This document shows, in pieces, positions 38,103-51,387 of a stretch of 64,000 nt of DNA (the first letter of the stretch is position 1; the number at the start of each line of letters is the position of its first letter). The position numbers and the translations under genes are program-made. The notes beneath the pieces were generated by a model. That model was not told where the DNA came from. It was given only the letters and a program-made list of their open reading frames with translations, and did no database searches. Where the stretch lies: sequence record OQ850289; one strand, 5' to 3'. The stretch is from Escherichia phage vB_EcoM_ULIM3.

Positions 38103-38381
38103 ATGGCTAAAGAAAAGTGGGAGATTTTACCATTAGTCAGTGAAGGAGGTAATGGTTGTGAAATGTACATGATACGTGGTCATGTTCCAGAGCCAATTGC
38201 ACTTGAGATGGTAAACAACTTTACAGATGGTTCTTACAAAGACTTAGGCGAACCAACTGTCAAGCAACAATGGGTTAAACCTGTACCAGACAGCACAGGT
38301 AACTGTAGTGTACTTTATCACGTTGTAGACCCTGCAAAATGCAAATCTGCAATGGCAGTAACAAACGTAACTTTTGATTGA
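38103..38381 (+). CDS. hypothetical protein
   Basis: 92 aa ORF. Confidence 0.45.
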   Translation: MAKEKWEILPLVSEGGNGCEMYMIRGHVPEPIALEMVNNFTDGSYKDLGEPTVKQQWVKPVPDSTGNCSVLYHVVDPAKCKSAMAVTNVTFD

Positions 38382-39274
38382 GAGAGAAAACTATGAAAAC
38401 ATCTATCCGTGTCACAATTCATTCACCGACTAAAGGAACTCATGAAGAAGAGTTTAACATAATCCAATTCCCTTCTGGTGAGATTGGTGGCCACTTTTCA
38501 CAAGAGCTTGTTGATTTTACTGCTTATGCAGCATCATCTATTAACAATGTGGTTATGATTGTAAAGGGTTATGACAAAGACACACTGTTTGCTGTGGCAC
38601 TGGCTAAAGAAGCAATTGACGATTTAGTTCCTCATGATTATGCCCTGAAGACTGTCATTTTTTACTACTTGCCAAATGCACGATACGACCGTCACATGTT
38701 TAAAGGCGACGCAGCAGCTTTAAAGGTTTTTGCTAAACAGGTAAATGCAATGGGATTTGGTGCAGTCTGTGCAGTTGACCCTCACAGTTATGTACCAGAT
38801 AACCTGTTTAACTGCTTCCAAAGTATTCCTCAAAAGGAGATTGCAGTCCACTATGCAAATGACCCTCTAATTGATTACTTAGTAGCCCCAGATGCAGGTG
38901 CTTCTAAGAAGATTGCAGAGACTGCTAAAGAGGTGGATAAACCATATATCACAATGTCTAAGGTGCGAAATCTTAAGACTGGAGAAATCACTGGTATGCG
39001 AATCCTTGACGATGTTGATTTGACCGATAAAACCGTCATGATTCTTGATGATATCTGTGATGGTGGTCGAACCTTCGTAGAGGCAGCTAAACACCTACGT
39101 GAAGCAGGTGCAAAACGTGTTGAGCTTTATGTAACACATGGTATCTTCTCTAAAGGTGTTGAAAACCTTCTTGACAACGGTATCGACCATATTTACACTA
39201 CAAACTCTTTAGGCGAAGCTAAAGACCGTGGCTTAACACATTATGGTCAAGTTACTGTAGCAAACATTGATTAG
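38378..39274 (+). CDS. ribose-phosphate pyrophosphokinase family protein (Prs-like)
   Basis: 298 aa; PRTase motif VMILDDICDGGRTF, PHDYALKTVIFYYLPNARYDR and VAPDAGASKK collinear with Prs. Confidence 0.8.
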   Translation: MREKTMKTSIRVTIHSPTKGTHEEEFNIIQFPSGEIGGHFSQELVDFTAYAASSINNVVMIVKGYDKDTLFAVALAKEAIDDLVPHDYALKTVIFYYLPNARYDRHMFKGDAAALKVFAKQVNAMGFGAVCAVDPHSYVPDNLFNCFQSIPQKEIAVHYANDPLIDYLVAPDAGASKKIAETAKEVDKPYITMSKVRNLKTGEITGMRILDDVDLTDKTVMILDDICDGGRTFVEAAKHLREAGAKRVELYVTHGIFSKGVENLLDNGIDHIYTTNSLGEAKDRGLTHYGQVTVANID

Positions 39275-39282
39275 GTAACAGT

Positions 39283-39774
39283 ATGAATAAGGGTTATTTT
39301 GAAAGATACCTAATATATGAACCAGATACAGGTTTATTAATTTGGAGAGTAACCCTTTGCAGTACCGCTATTGCTGGTAATGTGGCTGGCACAAGGTCTA
39401 AGAAGGGTTATATCCAAGTCCAGATAAATAAGAAGAGGTACTATGCACATAATATTGCATGGATTATGTCTGGAGGTGAGATACCAAGTGGATATGAGAT
39501 AGACCACATAGACCTTGATAAATCTAATAATAAGTTGGAGAATTTAAGACTTAGCACAAAGTCACAAAATCAGAGGAACAGGGGTATATACAAGAATAAT
39601 AAAACTGGTGTGAAGGGTGTAAGTTTTTGTAAACAAACAGGTCTTTACAAAGCAAGAGTCATGCTTTACCATAAAGAATACTTTTGTGGAAGATTTAAAA
39701 CGGTAGAAGAAGCAAAAGAAGCTGTAATTAAAAAGCGAATAGAACTTCATGGTGAGTTTGCAAGACATAACTAA
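39283..39774 (+). CDS. HNH homing endonuclease with AP2-like DNA-binding domain
   Basis: 163 aa; HNH region YAHNIAW..IDHIDLDKSNNKLENLRLSTKSQN; AP2-like KGVSFCKQTGLYKARV..FKTVEEA; inserted between Prs-like and NAMPT-like genes. Confidence 0.75.
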   Translation: MNKGYFERYLIYEPDTGLLIWRVTLCSTAIAGNVAGTRSKKGYIQVQINKKRYYAHNIAWIMSGGEIPSGYEIDHIDLDKSNNKLENLRLSTKSQNQRNRGIYKNNKTGVKGVSFCKQTGLYKARVMLYHKEYFCGRFKTVEEAKEAVIKKRIELHGEFARHN

Positions 39775-39788
39775 GAGAGAGATAAAAT

Positions 39789-41570
39789 ATGAGTAAGTCA
39801 CTTTACGCAGTACCAGCAGGTCTTAATGCAGATGCTTACAAGGCATCACATATATATCAGTATCCAGATGCTACGCAATATCTTATGTTGAACCTGACAC
39901 CACGTAGTGACAAATGGTTTAACAGCCCCTTAGCAATTGATGGTGTAGTAGCTTTTGGTATTCAACGTTTCGTTAAAGATTACTTGATAGACCACTGGAA
40001 CGCCACTTTCTTTGAACGTGATAAAAAAGAAGCCATTGATGAAATCTTAGAAGTCATGAATGGTGTTCTGGGTAAAGATGCTATCAGTCGAGAGCATTGG
40101 GAAGCACTTCACGACTTAGGTTATCTACCAGTTGAAGTATACGCTGTAGAAGAAGGTACAGTTGTCCCTATGCGTGTCCCAATGATTGTTTTCCAGAACA
40201 CTGTTTCAGGTTTCCATTGGGTAGCAGGTTATCTGGAAGATGCTTTCTCTGCTGAGATTTGGAAGGCTTGTACCATTGCAACTATTGCATTGCACTACAA
40301 ACGTATCTGTAAGAAGTGGGCTGACCTTACTTGTGACAATGACTTACATTTACCTTATCAGTGCCATGATTTTGCTATGCGTGGTATGTCCGGCTTTACT
40401 GATGACGCATTTAATGCTGTAGGTCACTTAACCAGCTTTAAAGGGACTGATAGCTTCCCTGCTGTGTACACAGCTAAACGCATCTATGGACAGTCCTACC
40501 CAATTTCTGATATTGGTAGTTCTGTACCAGCCACTGAACACTCTGTCATGTGTGCAAACATTGCTTGGGAAGGTGGTAATGAGTTGATTGAAGAGGAAAG
40601 ACGCTTTAAAGGTGAGTTACAAACCTTCCGTCGTTTCTTAACAGAAACTTACCCAACTGGTATTGCAAGTATTGTTTCAGATACTTATAACTTCTGGAGA
40701 ACTGTGTCAGAAATCTTACCAGCACTCCGTAAAGAAATTATGGAACGTGATGGTAAACTGGTAATTCGCCCTGACTCTGGAGACCCTGTACATATTGTCA
40801 CAGGTTATAAAGCAATCCACTTAGAGTGTGCTAAAAAGGCTTATTACGAGCACCTAAGCAAGCTTGAAGCCAGCGACACAATGTTGAATGCTGTTCTGAA
40901 CATGAAGCTTGAAAACATCAACTATGGTGTTGCTGGATGGCTACTGTCAGAAGGCTACGAAATGGTTGTTGACAGAGAAGACTTTGAAGTTGCTGATACA
41001 GTGCTGTTGAAAAACGCTTATATGGTTGGCTCTGCAAACGTTGTAACACGTCCTGTAGCGGAGATTGATGGAGCTATCAAGACACTGTATAACATCTTTG
41101 GAGGAACTATCAACTCTAAAGGTTTTAAAGTACTGGATGAGCATATCGGGCTTATTTATGGCGACTCTATCACGTTGGAACGTGCAAACGAAATACTGAA
41201 GCGTTTGTATGAAATGGGTTTTGCAAGCTCTAACGTAGTGTTTGGTGTAGGTTCTTACACTTACCAGTACATGACTCGTGACACCTTTGCATTTGCTGTC
41301 AAAGCAACTCTTGCAAGCATTGGTGGTAAAGAGATTATGCTTGCAAAAGACCCTAAAACAGATAGTGGTGTTAAGAAGTCTGCTTTTGGTGGTGTAGCAC
41401 CTATGTGGGATGGTGAAAATCTGAAAGCTGTCGATGGCTATGGGTTCCAGAGCTTTGCAGATGCACTTGAACACCCAGCTTGTGCTTTACGTCTAGTCTT
41501 TAGCGACTCTGAGCAGTTCGGCTACACGACTCTTGGTGATATTCGAAATAATATTGACAAGCAGCTTTAA
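39789..41570 (+). CDS. nadV: nicotinamide phosphoribosyltransferase family protein
   Basis: 593 aa; size and overall similarity to NAMPT/NadV-type enzymes; gene symbol tentative. Confidence 0.7.
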   Translation: MSKSLYAVPAGLNADAYKASHIYQYPDATQYLMLNLTPRSDKWFNSPLAIDGVVAFGIQRFVKDYLIDHWNATFFERDKKEAIDEILEVMNGVLGKDAISREHWEALHDLGYLPVEVYAVEEGTVVPMRVPMIVFQNTVSGFHWVAGYLEDAFSAEIWKACTIATIALHYKRICKKWADLTCDNDLHLPYQCHDFAMRGMSGFTDDAFNAVGHLTSFKGTDSFPAVYTAKRIYGQSYPISDIGSSVPATEHSVMCANIAWEGGNELIEEERRFKGELQTFRRFLTETYPTGIASIVSDTYNFWRTVSEILPALRKEIMERDGKLVIRPDSGDPVHIVTGYKAIHLECAKKAYYEHLSKLEASDTMLNAVLNMKLENINYGVAGWLLSEGYEMVVDREDFEVADTVLLKNAYMVGSANVVTRPVAEIDGAIKTLYNIFGGTINSKGFKVLDEHIGLIYGDSITLERANEILKRLYEMGFASSNVVFGVGSYTYQYMTRDTFAFAVKATLASIGGKEIMLAKDPKTDSGVKKSAFGGVAPMWDGENLKAVDGYGFQSFADALEHPACALRLVFSDSEQFGYTTLGDIRNNIDKQL

Positions 41571-46151: not shown

Positions 46152-46700
46152 ATGAAGAAATTGATTCTAGGTTTGTGCTTAATGTTTACAGCACACTTAT
46201 CTTATGCAGTTGACTGCCCAGAGCTATCAATTAGCCAAAAAGTAAACATGTTAAAAGCTTACCAGTATGGTGAGAATAACATGGGTAAAGGTTGGGGTAT
46301 CACTCTAGCTGCTATAGCCTTACAAGAGTCAGAGTTAGGTCTGAAGGTAGAGAATAAAAAGACACATGATTATGGTATTTTCCAGAATCACTTGAAGACT
46401 GTTGTAAAGCGTAACAAAATTAGCCCTAATGTGGCTAAAAAGAAACTCTTAAGAGACTTTGATTATGCTGCGAAGGAAACTCACAAAGAGCTTGAGTTTT
46501 GGACAAAGGTGCATGGTCAGCCAAAGTCAAAGAAGACTTTACAAAAAGTTTTAGCATCATATAATGCTGGGTATTCGTACAGAATCCCTAAAGCTAAGAA
46601 GTATTCTCAAGATGTCTATAACAACATGAAAGTAATTGCTCAATGTGAATTTGCAACAAACATTTCTAAGGTAAATCATGAAAAAATTAAGAAAGTCTGA
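46152..46700 (+). CDS. putative secreted lytic transglycosylase-like protein (candidate endolysin)
   Basis: 182 aa; signal peptide MKKLILGLCLMFTAHLSYA; SLT-like AIALQESE and DYGIFQ motifs. Confidence 0.45.
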   Translation: MKKLILGLCLMFTAHLSYAVDCPELSISQKVNMLKAYQYGENNMGKGWGITLAAIALQESELGLKVENKKTHDYGIFQNHLKTVVKRNKISPNVAKKKLLRDFDYAAKETHKELEFWTKVHGQPKSKKTLQKVLASYNAGYSYRIPKAKKYSQDVYNNMKVIAQCEFATNISKVNHEKIKKV

Positions 46701-47373
46701 TGAAGTACTGTGTCATGCTTATGACTTACATCCTCATGAGTTAGGTCTTGATTCCTGTGTATGGACTCCAGAACAGTGTAGGGATTTTGAAGACACTGCA
46801 AGAGAAGTTGTATGTTCACTAGAAGAGTTTCACACATCAGAGCCAATTGTGAATGTTGTAGATAAAGAGACTGGACAAACTATAGGTGTAAGTCGTGATA
46901 GCTTAGTCATAGTCAATAAAGACCTTGTAGAAAAAGGGAATCTCATCTTAGCAGATATTGATGGTGTTCTTACAAATTTTAATCACGAAGATTGTTCAAC
47001 GGAATTGACTGACGGTTCATTCTCGCAGTACACTAATCTTCTTGACTCTGTAAGAGCAAAACCAACGTATGTTTTCAATATCATTGATGCAATTGCTAAT
47101 CATGCTGCTGTTGGACTCTTGACAGCGAGAGGTGAATCTCAGAGAATACCTACTGAGATGTTTTTAAGGCATAACACAGAGCATGACTACATGCTTTTTA
47201 TGCGTGGTTTTGGGACTAACTCTATAAGTGCAGAAAGTTTGAAAGTGAGGATGATTCAGTCTTGCATTCTGCCTTACTTTAATATAGTATGTTTTATAGA
47301 AGATACAGAGAAGAATGTTCAGAAGGTAAACAGAATCCTTCCACACATTAAAACCATGTTAGTTAAACATTGA
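46678..47373 (+). CDS. hypothetical protein, possible HAD-like hydrolase
   Basis: 231 aa; LILADIDGVLTNF resembles HAD motif I (DxDG); weak. Confidence 0.35.
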   Translation: MKKLRKSDEVLCHAYDLHPHELGLDSCVWTPEQCRDFEDTAREVVCSLEEFHTSEPIVNVVDKETGQTIGVSRDSLVIVNKDLVEKGNLILADIDGVLTNFNHEDCSTELTDGSFSQYTNLLDSVRAKPTYVFNIIDAIANHAAVGLLTARGESQRIPTEMFLRHNTEHDYMLFMRGFGTNSISAESLKVRMIQSCILPYFNIVCFIEDTEKNVQKVNRILPHIKTMLVKH

Positions 47374-49305: not shown

Positions 49306-49507
49306 AAAGACACGGAAAATTATCCGGTCAGCAGTATTCATTGGAAGAAATAAAGTGATTCCATTTACAGCAAATGATGTGATAGCCTACAGGGAAAAAT
49401 TAGCATTTAGTTATTGCTTGCGTGGCTTCATCTCACAACCATTGGAAGACTTCAAAAGTCGTTGTGGTAAAGGTATCATCATTCAAGAGGCAATTATCAA
49501 TGGCTGA
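49280..49507 (+). CDS. hypothetical protein
   Basis: 75 aa ORF. Confidence 0.4.
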   Translation: MRVILARDKKTRKIIRSAVFIGRNKVIPFTANDVIAYREKLAFSYCLRGFISQPLEDFKSRCGKGIIIQEAIING

Positions 49508-49700
49508 CTTCTGCAAAGACTGTTCTATTGAAATGTTCGGACGTGATACAGGTGACTTAAAAGGTCTCATCACTGAAGATGACTTTAAAGCTGGTTATGC
49601 AATGCCAGTAATCTGTGAAGGCTGTGGGTGTATCTGGGTAGACCACGAAGGACAGCGTGTAAAACCTTCAGAAGATAAAGAATCTTGGGAGAGATGTTAA
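49500..49700 (+). CDS. small zinc-ribbon protein
   Basis: Track ORF 49422-49700 trimmed to ATG 49500 (MADFCKDC); CKDC ... CEGCGC. Confidence 0.4.
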   Translation: MADFCKDCSIEMFGRDTGDLKGLITEDDFKAGYAMPVICEGCGCIWVDHEGQRVKPSEDKESWERC

Positions 49701-50486
49701 ATGGGTATTGTAAAAATCATCAAAGGTGATATCTTTGATGCCTTTGATAAAGGCAAATTTGATATCATTGGTCATGGTTGCAACTGTATGAATTTCATGG
49801 GTGCAGGTATTGCAGCAACTATTTCTAAGCGTTATCCAAAAGTGTATGATACTGACACAGAAGTTTACCTGTTTGCAGGTGGCATTCGTCACAAACCCTG
49901 TGAAAATTTACTAGGTAATTTCTCTGTAGCACGTTTAAAACAAGGCCGTATAGCTAACCTTTACACCCAACTTCATACTGGTAAAGATGCCCGATACAGT
50001 GCTTTAGAGTCATCTTTGAAACAGCTTAACAGATACTGTGAAGTTAACCAGTTGAAGAAAGTTGGTCTACCTATGATTGGTGCAGGTATCGGTGGGCTTG
50101 ACCCTCAAGCTGTCACAGTTATCATTAATCAGGTGATGAAGAGTGTAGATGTTTATCTGTATGTCTATGAAGCAAAAATGTATAATGAGTTACACTCAGG
50201 TTGGAAAAACTACTGTGAACCAGAATACTTTGCAGGTGTAGTTGTGTTCACAGATAACGAAGTTACCCTCTTCAGACGAAGAAAAGGTAAGATACATCAA
50301 AGTAACCCTCCGGTTGAAAAGATGTCTCTGAGTAACGCTCTAGTTACCCACCTGTCGAAGAGCAATCACAGGATTGCAGTAACATTTGGCAGTGATGCAG
50401 ATACTTATATCTATGCAAGAACTGATGAGGATATCGAGACAGTTTTCTCTTCACCAGAAGTTACCTTCTTAGACGCAAAGAACTAA
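49701..50486 (+). CDS. putative macro-domain protein (ADP-ribose binding/processing)
   Basis: 261 aa; N-terminal IIKGDIFDA ... IIGHGCNCMNFMGAGIAATISKRYP resembles macro domain signatures. Confidence 0.5.
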   Translation: MGIVKIIKGDIFDAFDKGKFDIIGHGCNCMNFMGAGIAATISKRYPKVYDTDTEVYLFAGGIRHKPCENLLGNFSVARLKQGRIANLYTQLHTGKDARYSALESSLKQLNRYCEVNQLKKVGLPMIGAGIGGLDPQAVTVIINQVMKSVDVYLYVYEAKMYNELHSGWKNYCEPEYFAGVVVFTDNEVTLFRRRKGKIHQSNPPVEKMSLSNALVTHLSKSNHRIAVTFGSDADTYIYARTDEDIETVFSSPEVTFLDAKN

Positions 50487-50557
50487 GAAACTCTGTAGAA
50501 TATTCACAATAGACCAAGCCTTTCTTATCTGGTAAATTTTTCAGGTAAGGAGGCTTT

Positions 50558-50753
50558 TTCATTTCAGAATTGTGCAGGTAGATTTCTATAGAGAAACCTG
50601 TAGAGAAAATATTGAACTCCAAAGAGAAAATTCATTTTCAAACTGTGCAGATAATCTCCAAAGAGCTTTTTCATTTTCAAAACGTGCAGACCCCGCTCAG
50701 GTCGGGCAAGAAAAATCATTTTAGATTTGTGCAGGTAGGTTTTTATAGAGAGC
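50558..50753. repeat. four direct iteron-like repeats
   Basis: Core TCATTT(T/C)(C/A)(A/G)A(A/T)(T/C/A)(T/C)GTGCAG(G/A)(T/C) at ~50558, 50631, 50670, 50714; copies 1 and 4 share ~38 bp. Confidence 0.6.
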
Positions 50754-50761
50754 CAGACCAA

Positions 50762-50792
50762 CCCCTCTCCCCCTCTTACTCCCCCTCTCCCC
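50762..50792 (-). other. G-quadruplex-forming motif (C-rich on + strand)
   Basis: + strand CCCC-TCT-CCCCC-TCTTACT-CCCCC-TCT-CCCC, i.e. four G4-5 tracts on - strand. Confidence 0.55.
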
Positions 50793-50914
50793 AAAAGTCA
50801 AGAGAAAAATTTGTAGCGGATTGAAAAATAATTCTTGATTTGTGTTCTGTTTTGTGGTAGTCGTGTGCGCCCGTTTCATTACAGTTTTGCCAAAAATATT
50901 TTTAAAATTTTTTC

Positions 50915-50974
50915 TTGACTCTTTGAACGTGGTTATCTAGTATTTGCATCAACGGGGAGGGAATGACCTTCCCC
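50915..50974 (+). promoter_or_regulatory. early promoter cassette 1 with 5' leader stem-loop
   Basis: TTGACT-17-TAGTAT, then GGGGAGGG-AATGA-CCTTCCCC hairpin and conserved RBS (CTGGAG-9-ATG). Confidence 0.6.
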
Positions 50975-51006
50975 ACTAAATAAAGTCCTAAACTGGAGGT
51001 TCAAAA

Positions 51007-51387
51007 ATGGCATATCGCGCACCTAAATTCATCAATAAAGACAACTTTCGCAACGCACTGGAGAAGTCACTTGATGAAAATTTTAAAGGTAACATTATCG
51101 TTGTTCACGCATTCAATTTTAAGTATGATGTAAACGGGAATAGAATCAACCATTACACGGCAACCATGTTAGATGGTACACTATCAAGTGAAAAAGCCGT
51201 ACTGAATGCACTAGCAGGACGCGGAAAAGTATTAGTAAGATGCGATAAGCGACGTTATCAGGGTGGCGCATATGGTTATGATGATGCTGTTTATCATCTT
51301 GAAAATATGGGCTATAAAGTAGAAAAAGCTGGGGTATCGCAAATCATCGGGAGCGATGGTTATGTAACAATCTTCAAAATTAACTGA
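51007..51387 (+). CDS. hypothetical early protein
   Basis: 126 aa ORF directly after promoter cassette. Confidence 0.55.
   Translation: MAYRAPKFINKDNFRNALEKSLDENFKGNIIVVHAFNFKYDVNGNRINHYTATMLDGTLSSEKAVLNALAGRGKVLVRCDKRRYQGGAYGYDDAVYHLENMGYKVEKAGVSQIIGSDGYVTIFKIN

What the first reader, a model, noticed from the sequence alone, without database searches (positions are those of the whole stretch)
49701..50486. Macro-domain protein at the entrance to the early region
The N-terminal ~140 aa carry macro-domain-like signatures (GDIFDA, HGCNCMNFMGAGIAA) fused to an uncharacterised C-terminal half. A phage ADP-ribose binding or hydrolysing protein could reverse host ADP-ribosylation-based immunity or toxins, or process ADP-ribose species linked to the NAD+ module 8 kb upstream.
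Basis: inference. Interest (0 to 1): 0.6.

Follow-up and report, generated by a model that had tools for sequence, protein, structure and literature searches.

The report
Phage macrodomain enzyme with orphan tail domain
This Felix-O1-like phage gene encodes an ADP-ribose-removing macrodomain closely related to a phage T4 protein recently shown to defeat the bacterial DarTG2 DNA-tagging defence, joined to a small extra domain that resembles nothing known.

Summary
ORF 49701-50486 (+) encodes a 261-aa protein whose first ~157 residues are a genuine macrodomain: Pfam Macro scores above its cut-off, and the AlphaFold model (pLDDT 90.6) superposes on TARG1 and on DarG macrodomains. The window is a Felixounavirus; the gene is 100% identical to that of phage VpaE1_ev78.

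The macrodomain belongs to PHROG 335. Databases label this family "phosphatase" from an old A1pp motif. T4 Tk.4 is in the same family (35% identity over its whole length, E 5e-24). A 2025 preprint names Tk.4 AdfM and shows T4 needs it to resist DarTG2.

The catalytic Lys of DarG and TARG1 is an invariant Gln here (NLYTQ motif). T4 Tk.4 and SCO6735, an active thymidine-ADP-ribose hydrolase, carry the same Gln.

The most likely function is removal of DarT2's ADP-ribose from thymidines in phage ssDNA.

The C-terminal ~104 residues are a conserved, faster-evolving, β-rich domain. It is found only in Ounavirinae-like phages and has no sequence or fold match.

No link to the upstream NAD+ (NARP1-like) genes is supported. 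Verdict: a new variant of a recently defined kind, of moderate interest.

The parts
49701..50486 (+). Complete CDS, 261 aa plus stop codon: a two-domain macrodomain protein of PHROG 335.
   Evidence: ORF list. 100% identical to the VpaE1_ev78 CDS VUF56924.1. phrog_335 E 5.7e-115.
49687..49693 (+). Shine-Dalgarno-like GGGAGAG, 7 nt before the ATG. The ATG directly abuts the TAA (49698-49700) of the upstream 66-aa Cys-rich ORF (49500-49700), suggesting translational coupling.
   Evidence: Sequence read directly. Upstream ORF annotation. Translation.
49701..50171 (+). Macrodomain, aa 1-157, of the TARG1/DarG-like (ALC1-like) class, Gln-type.
   Evidence: Pfam Macro. NCBIfam DarG E 9e-15 and PADLOC DarG E 6e-15, macro part only. 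Foldseek TM 0.87 to TARG1 and 0.84 to DarG. 35% identity to T4 Tk.4/AdfM. dN/dS 0.02-0.12.
49773..49817 (+). HGCNCMNFMGAGIAA, aa 25-39. Contains invariant Asn28, equivalent to DarG N22 and PhiKZ AdfM N23, and the first Gly-rich phosphate-binding loop.
   Evidence: Invariant columns H25, G26, N28, C29, M33, G36, A38. Alignment with PhiKZ gp104. Catalytic residues as given in PMC13309987.
49956..49970 (+). NLYTQ, aa 86-90. Invariant Gln90 sits where DarG has catalytic Lys80 and TARG1 has Lys84.
   Evidence: HMMER alignments to TARG1. Invariant in 28 phage homologues and in T4 Tk.4. Bacterial relatives have NAYTQ. SCO6735 Gln85 is the equivalent residue and is essential for activity.
50076..50102 (+). 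IGAGIGGLD, aa 126-134: the second Gly-rich ADP-ribose-binding loop.
   Evidence: G127 and G129 invariant; I126 and I130 nearly invariant.
50172..50483 (+). C-terminal orphan domain, aa 158-261: a linker helix, a conserved N-x3-P-x4-G turn (N170, P174, G179), six beta-strands and a short C-terminal helix.
50520..50553 (+). Terminator-like hairpin followed by a T-run, 34 nt after the stop codon.
   Evidence: Consensus scan only. Function not shown.

Best explanation
The gene encodes an AdfM-type anti-defence enzyme, that is, an orphan DarG2-like antitoxin carried by the phage. After infection the N-terminal macrodomain binds ADP-ribose attached by the host toxin DarT2 to thymidines in single-stranded phage DNA. 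It hydrolyses the ribose-thymine bond, so replication and transcription can proceed.

Catalysis would use the Gln-type active site (Asn28, Gln90 and two Gly-rich loops), as in SCO6735, not the Lys-type site of DarG and TARG1.

The C-terminal ~104-residue domain is a lineage-specific accessory module. It is more likely a binding or targeting module than a catalytic one. Possible partners are ssDNA or the replisome, or the toxin itself.

What is shown: macrodomain identity, family membership with T4 Tk.4, the active-site make-up, and the conservation and orphan status of the C-terminal domain. What is inferred: the substrate, the anti-DarTG2 role in this phage, and any role of the C-terminal domain.
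For: 1. The macro fold is established by sequence and by the structure model.

2. The best curated-family hits are DarG models: NCBIfam NF048014 at E 9e-15 and PADLOC DarG at E 5.7e-15.

3. T4 Tk.4 aligns over its full 155 aa at 35% identity, E 5e-24, with the same NLYTQ motif. It falls in the same PHROG 335, at E 1.3e-65.

4. The HIDEN-SEQ preprint (10.1101/2025.11.20.689424) found tk.4 as the single T4 hit against DarTG2. A clean knockout sensitised T4, and the gene was named adfM.

5. Every tested member of the TARG1/DarG/SCO6735 clade hydrolyses thymidine-linked ADP-ribose (PMC12879935). SCO6735 does so with Gln85 at the Lys position, and Q85A abolishes activity (PMC9411070).

6. Asn28 is invariant and is equivalent to DarG N22 and PhiKZ AdfM N23.

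7. The macrodomain is basic, with pI about 9 in all orthologues, which suits nucleic-acid binding.

8. The gene is present in at least 200 Felixounavirus-like records and is under purifying selection in both domains.

9. The architecture and the synteny rIIA-rIIB-...-macro persist in phages only 31-45% identical.
Against: - No experiment exists for any Ounavirinae protein, and no data were found on Felixounavirus sensitivity to DarTG2.
- The T4 evidence is genetic and comes from a preprint. Tk.4's biochemistry has not been reported.
- Identity to Tk.4 is only 35%.
- The score against the DarG equivalog model is far below its cut-off (54.7 against 250 bits).
- The canonical catalytic Lys is absent.
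- Relatives of this family are fused to SLOG and cREC_REC domains. Aravind and colleagues link those domains to soluble ADP-ribose derivatives.
- 485 stand-alone bacterial relatives were found; in the ~70 of the 80 fetched loci that could be analysed there is no DarT neighbour. The family as a whole is therefore not tied to DarT.
- The role of the C-terminal domain is entirely inferred.
Confidence: 0.6

Rival explanations
1. The macrodomain acts on soluble ADP-ribose derivatives rather than on DNA. Candidates are O-acetyl-ADP-ribose, ADP-ribose-1''-phosphate, or ADP-ribose-based immune signals such as His-ADPR or gcADPR. It would either destroy defence signals or toxic metabolites, or release free ADP-ribose that the phage's NARP1-like Prs/NAMPT pair recycles into NAD+.
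For: Database labels for the family are 'phosphatase' (A1pp motif), 'Poa1p_like' and 'O-acetyl-ADP-ribose deacetylase'. The model resembles Poa1p, an ADP-ribose-1''-phosphatase, with TM 0.77. Family members are fused to cREC_REC (P0020) and SLOG (B. thuringiensis plasmids). [quoted passage not shown] A NARP1-like pair is in the same genome.
Against: The labels are motif-based, not experimental. The closest tested homologue, T4 Tk.4, gives a DarTG2-specific phenotype. T4 carries the macro family, but its NAD+-module status was not checked here. The NAMPT-like gene is widespread in phage groups that are not among the listed carriers of this macro family. Eight kilobases and more than ten genes separate the two loci.
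Confidence: 0.15
2. The protein removes ADP-ribose from proteins or RNA. It would counter other host ADP-ribosyltransferase toxins or defences, for example mRNA-modifying CmdT-type or protein-modifying ARTs, or it would tune ADP-ribosylation set by the phage itself.
For: The best PDB sequence and fold match is TARG1, a protein Glu/Asp-ADP-ribose hydrolase. SCO6735 acts on both protein and DNA substrates. Macrodomains are generally promiscuous.
Against: TARG1 and SCO6735 also cleave T-ADPr and prefer ssDNA. No ART gene was identified next to the macro gene, although the whole genome was not screened. The T4 homologue's only reported phenotype is against DarTG2.
Confidence: 0.15
3. The protein is a non-catalytic ADP-ribose binder, acting as a reader or sponge. 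Loss of the catalytic Lys would reflect loss of hydrolase activity, and the C-terminal domain would provide the real effector function.
For: Lys80/84 is replaced by Gln90. Some macrodomains, such as macroH2A, are binders only.
Against: Gln at this position supports full activity in SCO6735 and is essential there. The Gln is invariant across hundreds of phage and bacterial relatives, along with Asn28 and both Gly loops. That is the pattern of a conserved active site. T4 Tk.4 has the same Gln and is functional in vivo. The C-terminal domain has no conserved polar residues that suggest catalysis.
Confidence: 0.05

Closest known systems
T4 Tk.4 = AdfM (anti-DarT factor macrodomain; bioRxiv 10.1101/2025.11.20.689424)
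   Same: Same PHROG (335). 35% identity over all 155 aa of Tk.4. Same motifs: HGCNC..MG.G, NLYTQ, IGAGIG. Both are carried by lytic enterobacterial myoviruses.
   Different: Tk.4 is a stand-alone macrodomain. The Felixounavirus protein carries an extra conserved ~104-aa C-terminal domain. The anti-DarTG2 activity is demonstrated only for T4, and only genetically.
PhiKZ gp104 AdfM (Cell Rep 2026, PMC13309987)
   Same: A phage-encoded, DarG2-like macrodomain that removes DarT2 ADP-ribose from DNA. The Asn equivalent to N23 is conserved.
   Different: Only 25% identity. PhiKZ keeps the catalytic Lys (K78), whereas this protein has Gln90. gp104 is imported into a phage nucleus, which Felixounaviruses lack according to general knowledge. 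gp104 has no C-terminal extra domain.
Bacterial DarG2 antitoxin (T. aquaticus and M. tuberculosis DarG; NCBIfam NF048014)
   Same: Macrodomain fold with TM 0.79-0.84. It is the best curated-profile match. The second loop is the same GGLD-type. The layout is also two modules, a macrodomain plus a C-terminal domain.
   Different: Lys80 is replaced by Gln. The C-terminal domain is unrelated in sequence, since the profile match stops at position 152 of 338, and no DarG C-terminal-domain fold hit appeared. There is no adjacent DarT gene. The score is far below the equivalog cut-off.
SCO6735 of Streptomyces coelicolor (PDB 5e3b; PMC9411070)
   Same: A stand-alone, non-TA macrodomain of the same class with Gln at the catalytic Lys position. 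It is active on thymidine-ADP-ribosylated ssDNA.
   Different: Sequence similarity is very weak (E 0.09). It is a bacterial, DNA-damage-inducible protein with a longer mobile loop.
Human TARG1/OARD1 (PDB 4j5s)
   Same: Top sequence and fold match (TM 0.87). It cleaves T-ADPr DNA as well as protein Glu-ADPr.
   Different: It uses a Lys84/Asp125 dyad. This protein has Gln90 in place of the Lys. TARG1 is eukaryotic and has a single domain.

Membership tests
Macro domain superfamily (Pfam PF01661) | Profile match above the curated gathering score | tested here: met
   30 bits against a 22-bit cut-off, E 5.3e-7, aa 25-141 covering profile positions 2-117 of 118.
Macro domain superfamily (Pfam PF01661) | Three-layer alpha/beta/alpha macro fold | tested here: met
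   AF2 model pLDDT 90.6. Foldseek gives 244 PDB hits at E<=1e-3, and all 50 listed are macrodomains or designs built on a macro scaffold. The top hits are TARG1 (TM 0.87) and DarG (TM 0.84).
Macro domain superfamily (Pfam PF01661) | Two Gly-rich ADP-ribose/phosphate-binding loops and the adenine-contacting Asp after strand 1 | tested here: met
   MGAGIA (aa 33-38) and IGAGIGG (aa 126-132) are invariant or nearly so. G9-D10 is nearly invariant and aligns with TARG1 G19-D20. The role of the Asp is recalled from general macrodomain knowledge.
Macro domain superfamily (Pfam PF01661) | Binds or hydrolyses ADP-ribose | not testable with these tools
   Needs biochemistry.
AdfM, T4 Tk.4 type (PHROG 335) | Full-length homology to T4 Tk.4 and the same PHROG | tested here: met
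   BLASTP E 5e-24, 35% identity, Tk.4 residues 2-152 of 155. Both match phrog_335, at E 5.7e-115 and 1.3e-65.
AdfM, T4 Tk.4 type (PHROG 335) | Gln-type active-site motif N-[LA]-Y-T-Q plus HGCNC | tested here: met
   Invariant in 28 phage homologues and in Tk.4.
AdfM, T4 Tk.4 type (PHROG 335) | Stand-alone single macrodomain of about 150-160 aa | tested here: not met
   The protein is 261 aa, with a conserved extra domain at aa 158-261.
AdfM, T4 Tk.4 type (PHROG 335) | Required for phage growth on DarTG2 hosts; removes T-linked ADP-ribose | not testable with these tools
   Only literature on T4 and PhiKZ exists. Nothing was found for Ounavirinae.
DarG2 antitoxin (NCBIfam NF048014 equivalog) | Score above the curated cut-off | tested here: not met
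   54.7 bits against a 250-bit cut-off. The match covers only profile positions 2-152 of 338.
DarG2 antitoxin (NCBIfam NF048014 equivalog) | Catalytic Lys (Taq K80) | tested here: not met
   Gln90 occupies the position in this protein and in all relatives.
DarG2 antitoxin (NCBIfam NF048014 equivalog) | C-terminal DarT-binding domain | tested here: not met
DarG2 antitoxin (NCBIfam NF048014 equivalog) | Encoded next to a DarT toxin gene | tested here: not met
   The neighbours are small phage ORFs of 66-126 aa, and no ORF of DarT size is adjacent on either strand. The same holds in related loci L003 and L004.
SCO6735-like Gln-type DNA ADP-ribosyl hydrolases | Gln at the DarG-K80/TARG1-K84 position | tested here: met
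   Gln90. The SCO6735 Gln85 equivalence is taken from PMC9411070.
SCO6735-like Gln-type DNA ADP-ribosyl hydrolases | Significant sequence similarity to SCO6735 | tested here: not met
   5e3b scores E 0.09 with the single sequence and is absent at E<=0.01 with the family profile.
Poa1p-type ADP-ribose-1''-phosphate phosphatase (source of the 'phosphatase' label) | Similarity over the whole domain and phosphatase activity | tested here: inconclusive
   Fold TM is 0.76-0.77, but the sequence match covers only the first ~60 residues. Activity is not testable here.
NARP1 NAD+ reconstitution module (Adps + Namat), as an accessory member | Consistent co-occurrence or adjacency with the Prs-like/NAMPT-like pair | tested here: not met
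   The macro gene lies 8 kb and more than ten genes away. The two genes' phage distributions overlap only partly: by genus the NAMPT-like gene is common in Staphylococcus, Mycobacterium and Listeria phages, which are not among the listed macro-family carriers. This is a coarse test based on organism counts.

The most novel reading that the evidence does not exclude
The Ounavirinae-specific C-terminal domain is a second, non-enzymatic anti-defence module. It might bind and block DarT2 or another host immune protein directly, or it might dock the hydrolase onto ssDNA or the replisome. If it binds the toxin, the phage protein would be an independent re-invention of the two-module logic of DarG (eraser plus toxin binder) using an unrelated new fold. 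Its faster evolution (12-53% identity against 41-78% for the macrodomain; dN/dS about 0.12-0.37 against 0.02-0.12) would then reflect an arms race with its host target.
Probability: 0.2. Interest if true: 0.6.

Novelty: new variant of a known kind. Interest (0 to 1): 0.4.

Why it matters
Felixounaviruses are widely used Salmonella and E. coli typing and therapy phages. Their databases still call this gene 'hypothetical' or 'phosphatase'.

Re-annotating it as a probable AdfM-type anti-DarTG2 factor predicts that DarTG2-carrying hosts should not restrict these phages. Such hosts include pathogenic E. coli and Klebsiella.

The two macrodomain Adf reports found here, for T4 and PhiKZ, would also gain a third large phage lineage.

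The Gln-type active site is shared with T4 Tk.4, with hundreds of stand-alone bacterial relatives and with SCO6735. That points to a large, mechanistically distinct branch of DNA ADP-ribose erasers that has barely been studied.

The conserved orphan C-terminal domain is a concrete target for experiments. Comparing full-length and macro-only constructs would show whether phages add toxin-binding or targeting modules to borrowed antitoxin enzymes.

Tried and rejected
1. C-terminal domain homology. Every search was negative or inconsistent:
- Pfam and PHROG scans.
- Pfam scans of each of 13 diverse members.
- A PDB profile search.
- Foldseek against BFVD, which found only its own orthologue.
- An exhaustive hmmsearch of 1.84 billion representatives.

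2. AFDB50 fold search. The library was unavailable.

3. ssDNA-mimic idea for the C-terminal domain, by analogy with the DarG C-terminal domain. Net charge ranges from -4 to +3 across orthologues, so it is not consistently acidic. Not supported.

4. Bacterial origin next to DarT. I analysed about 70 of the 80 fetched genome loci of stand-alone relatives. No neighbour family recurs in more than 5 loci, and none resembles a toxin partner.

5. A conserved partner in the translationally coupled upstream small ORF. It is Cys-rich here and in L003, but the two are not alignable, and it differs in L004. Rejected.

6. A plasmid tblastn to fish out an annotated DarG for direct comparison. It returned only stand-alone or SLOG-fused macro proteins.

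7. Literature on Felixounavirus and DarTG. Nothing informative was found. LeRoux et al. 2022 is not held.

8. Rfam scan of 49-52 kb. It returned only sub-threshold microRNA noise.

Full report
**What is there.** The window is a Felixounavirus (Ounavirinae). The 786-bp stretch is 100% identical to Escherichia phage VpaE1_ev78 and to ULIM8. It is 90-98% identical to about 200 Escherichia and Salmonella Felix-O1-like phage records. In VpaE1_ev78 it is CDS VUF56924.1, 'hypothetical protein', about 7 kb from the genome end and downstream of rIIA and rIIB. Other records call it 'phosphatase'.

The ORF at 49701-50486 (+) encodes 261 aa. Its ATG directly follows the TAA of a 66-aa Cys-rich ORF, and a GGGAGAG Shine-Dalgarno sequence lies 7 nt upstream. 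A terminator-like hairpin (50520-50553) and a 520-bp spacer follow the gene.

**The macrodomain is real.**
- Pfam Macro scores 30 bits against a 22-bit gathering score.
- phmmer against PDB sequences finds TARG1/OARD1 first (E 1.4e-6), then the M. tuberculosis and T. aquaticus DarG macrodomains.
- A profile of the orthologues raises these to E 2e-10 and 1e-8.
- An AlphaFold2 model built on 28 homologues has pLDDT 90.6 and pTM 0.88.
- Foldseek places the model on TARG1 (TM 0.87, normalised to the target), Taq DarG (0.84), Mtb DarG (0.79) and Poa1p (0.77).
- The best curated-family hits are DarG models: NCBIfam NF048014 at E 9e-15 and PADLOC DarG at E 5.7e-15. These match only the macro part and score far below the equivalog cut-off.

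**Family and closest characterised relative.** The protein matches PHROG 335 ('phosphatase') at E 5.7e-115. tblastn finds relatives in 2817 phage records. In T-even phages the hit lies next to the vs gene. In T4 that gene is tk.4, annotated 'phosphatase; contains A1pp phosphatase motif'.

Tk.4 aligns over its whole length at 35% identity, E 5e-24, and belongs to the same PHROG. A 2025 preprint using transposon sequencing of T4 found tk.4 as the single gene needed on DarTG2-expressing E. coli. The authors confirmed this with a clean knockout and named the gene adfM. This explained the earlier finding that T4 lacking adfA and adfN is still DarTG2-resistant.

Independently, PhiKZ gp104 was shown biochemically and genetically to be a macrodomain AdfM. 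That protein is only 25% identical to this one and keeps the catalytic Lys.

**Active site.** In every alignment the residue equivalent to TARG1 Lys84, DarG Lys80 and PhiKZ Lys78 is Gln90, within an invariant NLYTQ motif. T4 Tk.4 has the same motif. Stand-alone bacterial relatives have NAYTQ.

This does not indicate an inactive enzyme. SCO6735 has Gln85 at this position, efficiently cleaves thymidine-linked ADP-ribose on ssDNA, and is inactivated by Q85A. All tested members of the TARG1/DarG/SCO6735 clade cleave T-ADPr and prefer ssDNA.

Asn28, equivalent to DarG N22, and both Gly-rich loops are invariant. The macrodomain is basic, with pI about 9 in all orthologues.

**The C-terminal domain.** Residues 158-261 fold confidently in the full-length model (block pLDDT 81-94). 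The structure is a linker helix, a conserved N170-x3-P174-x4-G179 turn, six beta-strands and a short terminal helix. Modelled alone, the domain reaches pLDDT 80.

I found no relative outside its own family:
- Pfam and PHROG scans gave nothing.
- A PDB profile search gave nothing.
- BFVD returned only the SUSP2 orthologue.
- An exhaustive HMM search of 1.84 billion representatives returned only fused orthologues and fragments, plus two repetitive adhesin artefacts.

The two-domain architecture extends to Citrobacter (Maleficent-type) and Pectobacterium (Wc4-1, Arno162) phages. It also occurs in metagenomic phages 31-45% identical to this one, which keep the synteny rIIA-rIIB-...-PNK-like HAD-...-macro.

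The domain evolves faster than the macrodomain but is still constrained:

| Measure | C-terminal domain | Macrodomain |
|---|---|---|
| Identity to this protein across orthologues | 12-53% | 41-78% |
| dN/dS among four Felixounavirus genes | 0.12-0.37 | 0.02-0.12 |

It has no conserved polar residues suggesting catalysis and no consistent acidic charge of the kind reported for the ssDNA-mimicking DarG C-terminal domain. I therefore regard it as an orphan binding or targeting module of unknown partner.

**Context and the NAD+ idea.** The Prs-like gene (38378-39274) and the NAMPT-like gene (39789-41570) are confirmed. An HNH endonuclease gene splits them, and they look like a NARP1-type pair. 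They are separated from the macro gene by rIIA, rIIB, a PNK-like HAD phosphatase and several small ORFs.

T4 carries the macro family. The NAMPT-like gene is common in Staphylococcus, Mycobacterium and Listeria phages, which are not among the listed carriers of this macro family. The two modules are simply both frequent in large myoviruses, and no specific coupling is supported. A trivial biochemical link, in which released ADP-ribose becomes a NARP1 substrate, cannot be excluded.

**Bacterial relatives.** A scan of 185,579 species' genomes found 485 loci encoding relatives at about 35% identity. In the 80 that were fetched, these are ~151-aa stand-alone proteins. About 70 of those could be analysed, and no neighbour family recurs, so there is no DarT partner. 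Occasional fusions to SLOG, cREC_REC and a GIY-YIG-like segment exist. The Gln-type family is therefore a broad housekeeping or conflict family rather than a toxin-antitoxin component. This tempers the substrate inference and keeps the small-molecule rival alive.

**Verdict.** The most likely function is an AdfM-type eraser of DarT2 thymidine ADP-ribosylation (confidence 0.6). It uses a Gln-type active site and is extended by a lineage-specific orphan domain.

The protein is not a DarG2 family member. It lacks the Lys, the DarT-binding domain and the toxin neighbour, and it scores below the cut-off. It is a member of the T4 Tk.4/PHROG 335 family with a new architecture, so I rate it a new variant of a known kind, of moderate interest.

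Noticed in passing
window 50559-50751 (within intergenic 50487-51006): Four direct copies of a ~19-nt motif, TCATTT(T)..TGTGCAG, start at 50559, 50632, 50671 and 50716, where shuffles give none. Two copies extend to 36 nt at 89% identity. The motif recurs at the same place downstream of the macro gene in VpaE1_ev78, REP5, I14.1 and VSe11. It could be an operator or promoter array at the start of the next transcription unit. There is no Rfam match.
   Followed up: partly
window 50760-50795 and 50915-50943: A C-rich tract (CCCCTCTCCCCCTCTTACTCCCCCTCTCCCC) is followed by a sigma-70-like promoter, TTGACT-17-TAGTAT, in front of ORF 51007-51387.
   Followed up: no
window 38378-41570: A Prs-like gene (Pribosyltran/Pribosyl_synth) and a NAMPT-like gene (NAPRTase plus NAMPT_N) are split by an HNH endonuclease gene at 39283-39774. 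They look like a NARP1-type NAD+ reconstitution pair interrupted by a homing endonuclease.
   Followed up: partly
window 46678-47373: A 231-aa protein matches PHROG 3970 'polynucleotide kinase' at E 1e-134. It is a HAD/PNKP-phosphatase-like protein conserved in the same position in distant relatives L003 and L004. This hints at an RNA- or DNA-end repair function in the same gene block.
   Followed up: no
window 49500-49700: A 66-aa Cys-rich (CxxC...CxxC, zinc-ribbon-like) ORF is translationally coupled to the macro gene. L003 has a different zinc-ribbon-like ORF in the same position, and L004 has an unrelated ORF there.
   Followed up: partly
loci L005-L084 (bacterial genomes): A large, uncharacterised bacterial family of ~151-aa stand-alone macrodomains carries HGCNC and NAYTQ motifs (Gln-type). 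It was found in 485 loci across many phyla. In the fetched loci that could be analysed there is no conserved gene neighbourhood. B. thuringiensis plasmids carry a SLOG-annotated fusion, and P0020 is a Macro-cREC_REC fusion.
   Followed up: partly
L087 (PP892526.1, Escherichia phage vB_EcoM_I14.1): The record's taxonomy line says Demerecviridae/Tequintavirus. However, the 89-kb genome carries the Felixounavirus macro gene at 91% protein identity with the same flanking genes. The taxonomy label is probably wrong.
   Followed up: no
window 1-64000: ARAGORN finds no tRNA genes anywhere in the window.
   Followed up: no
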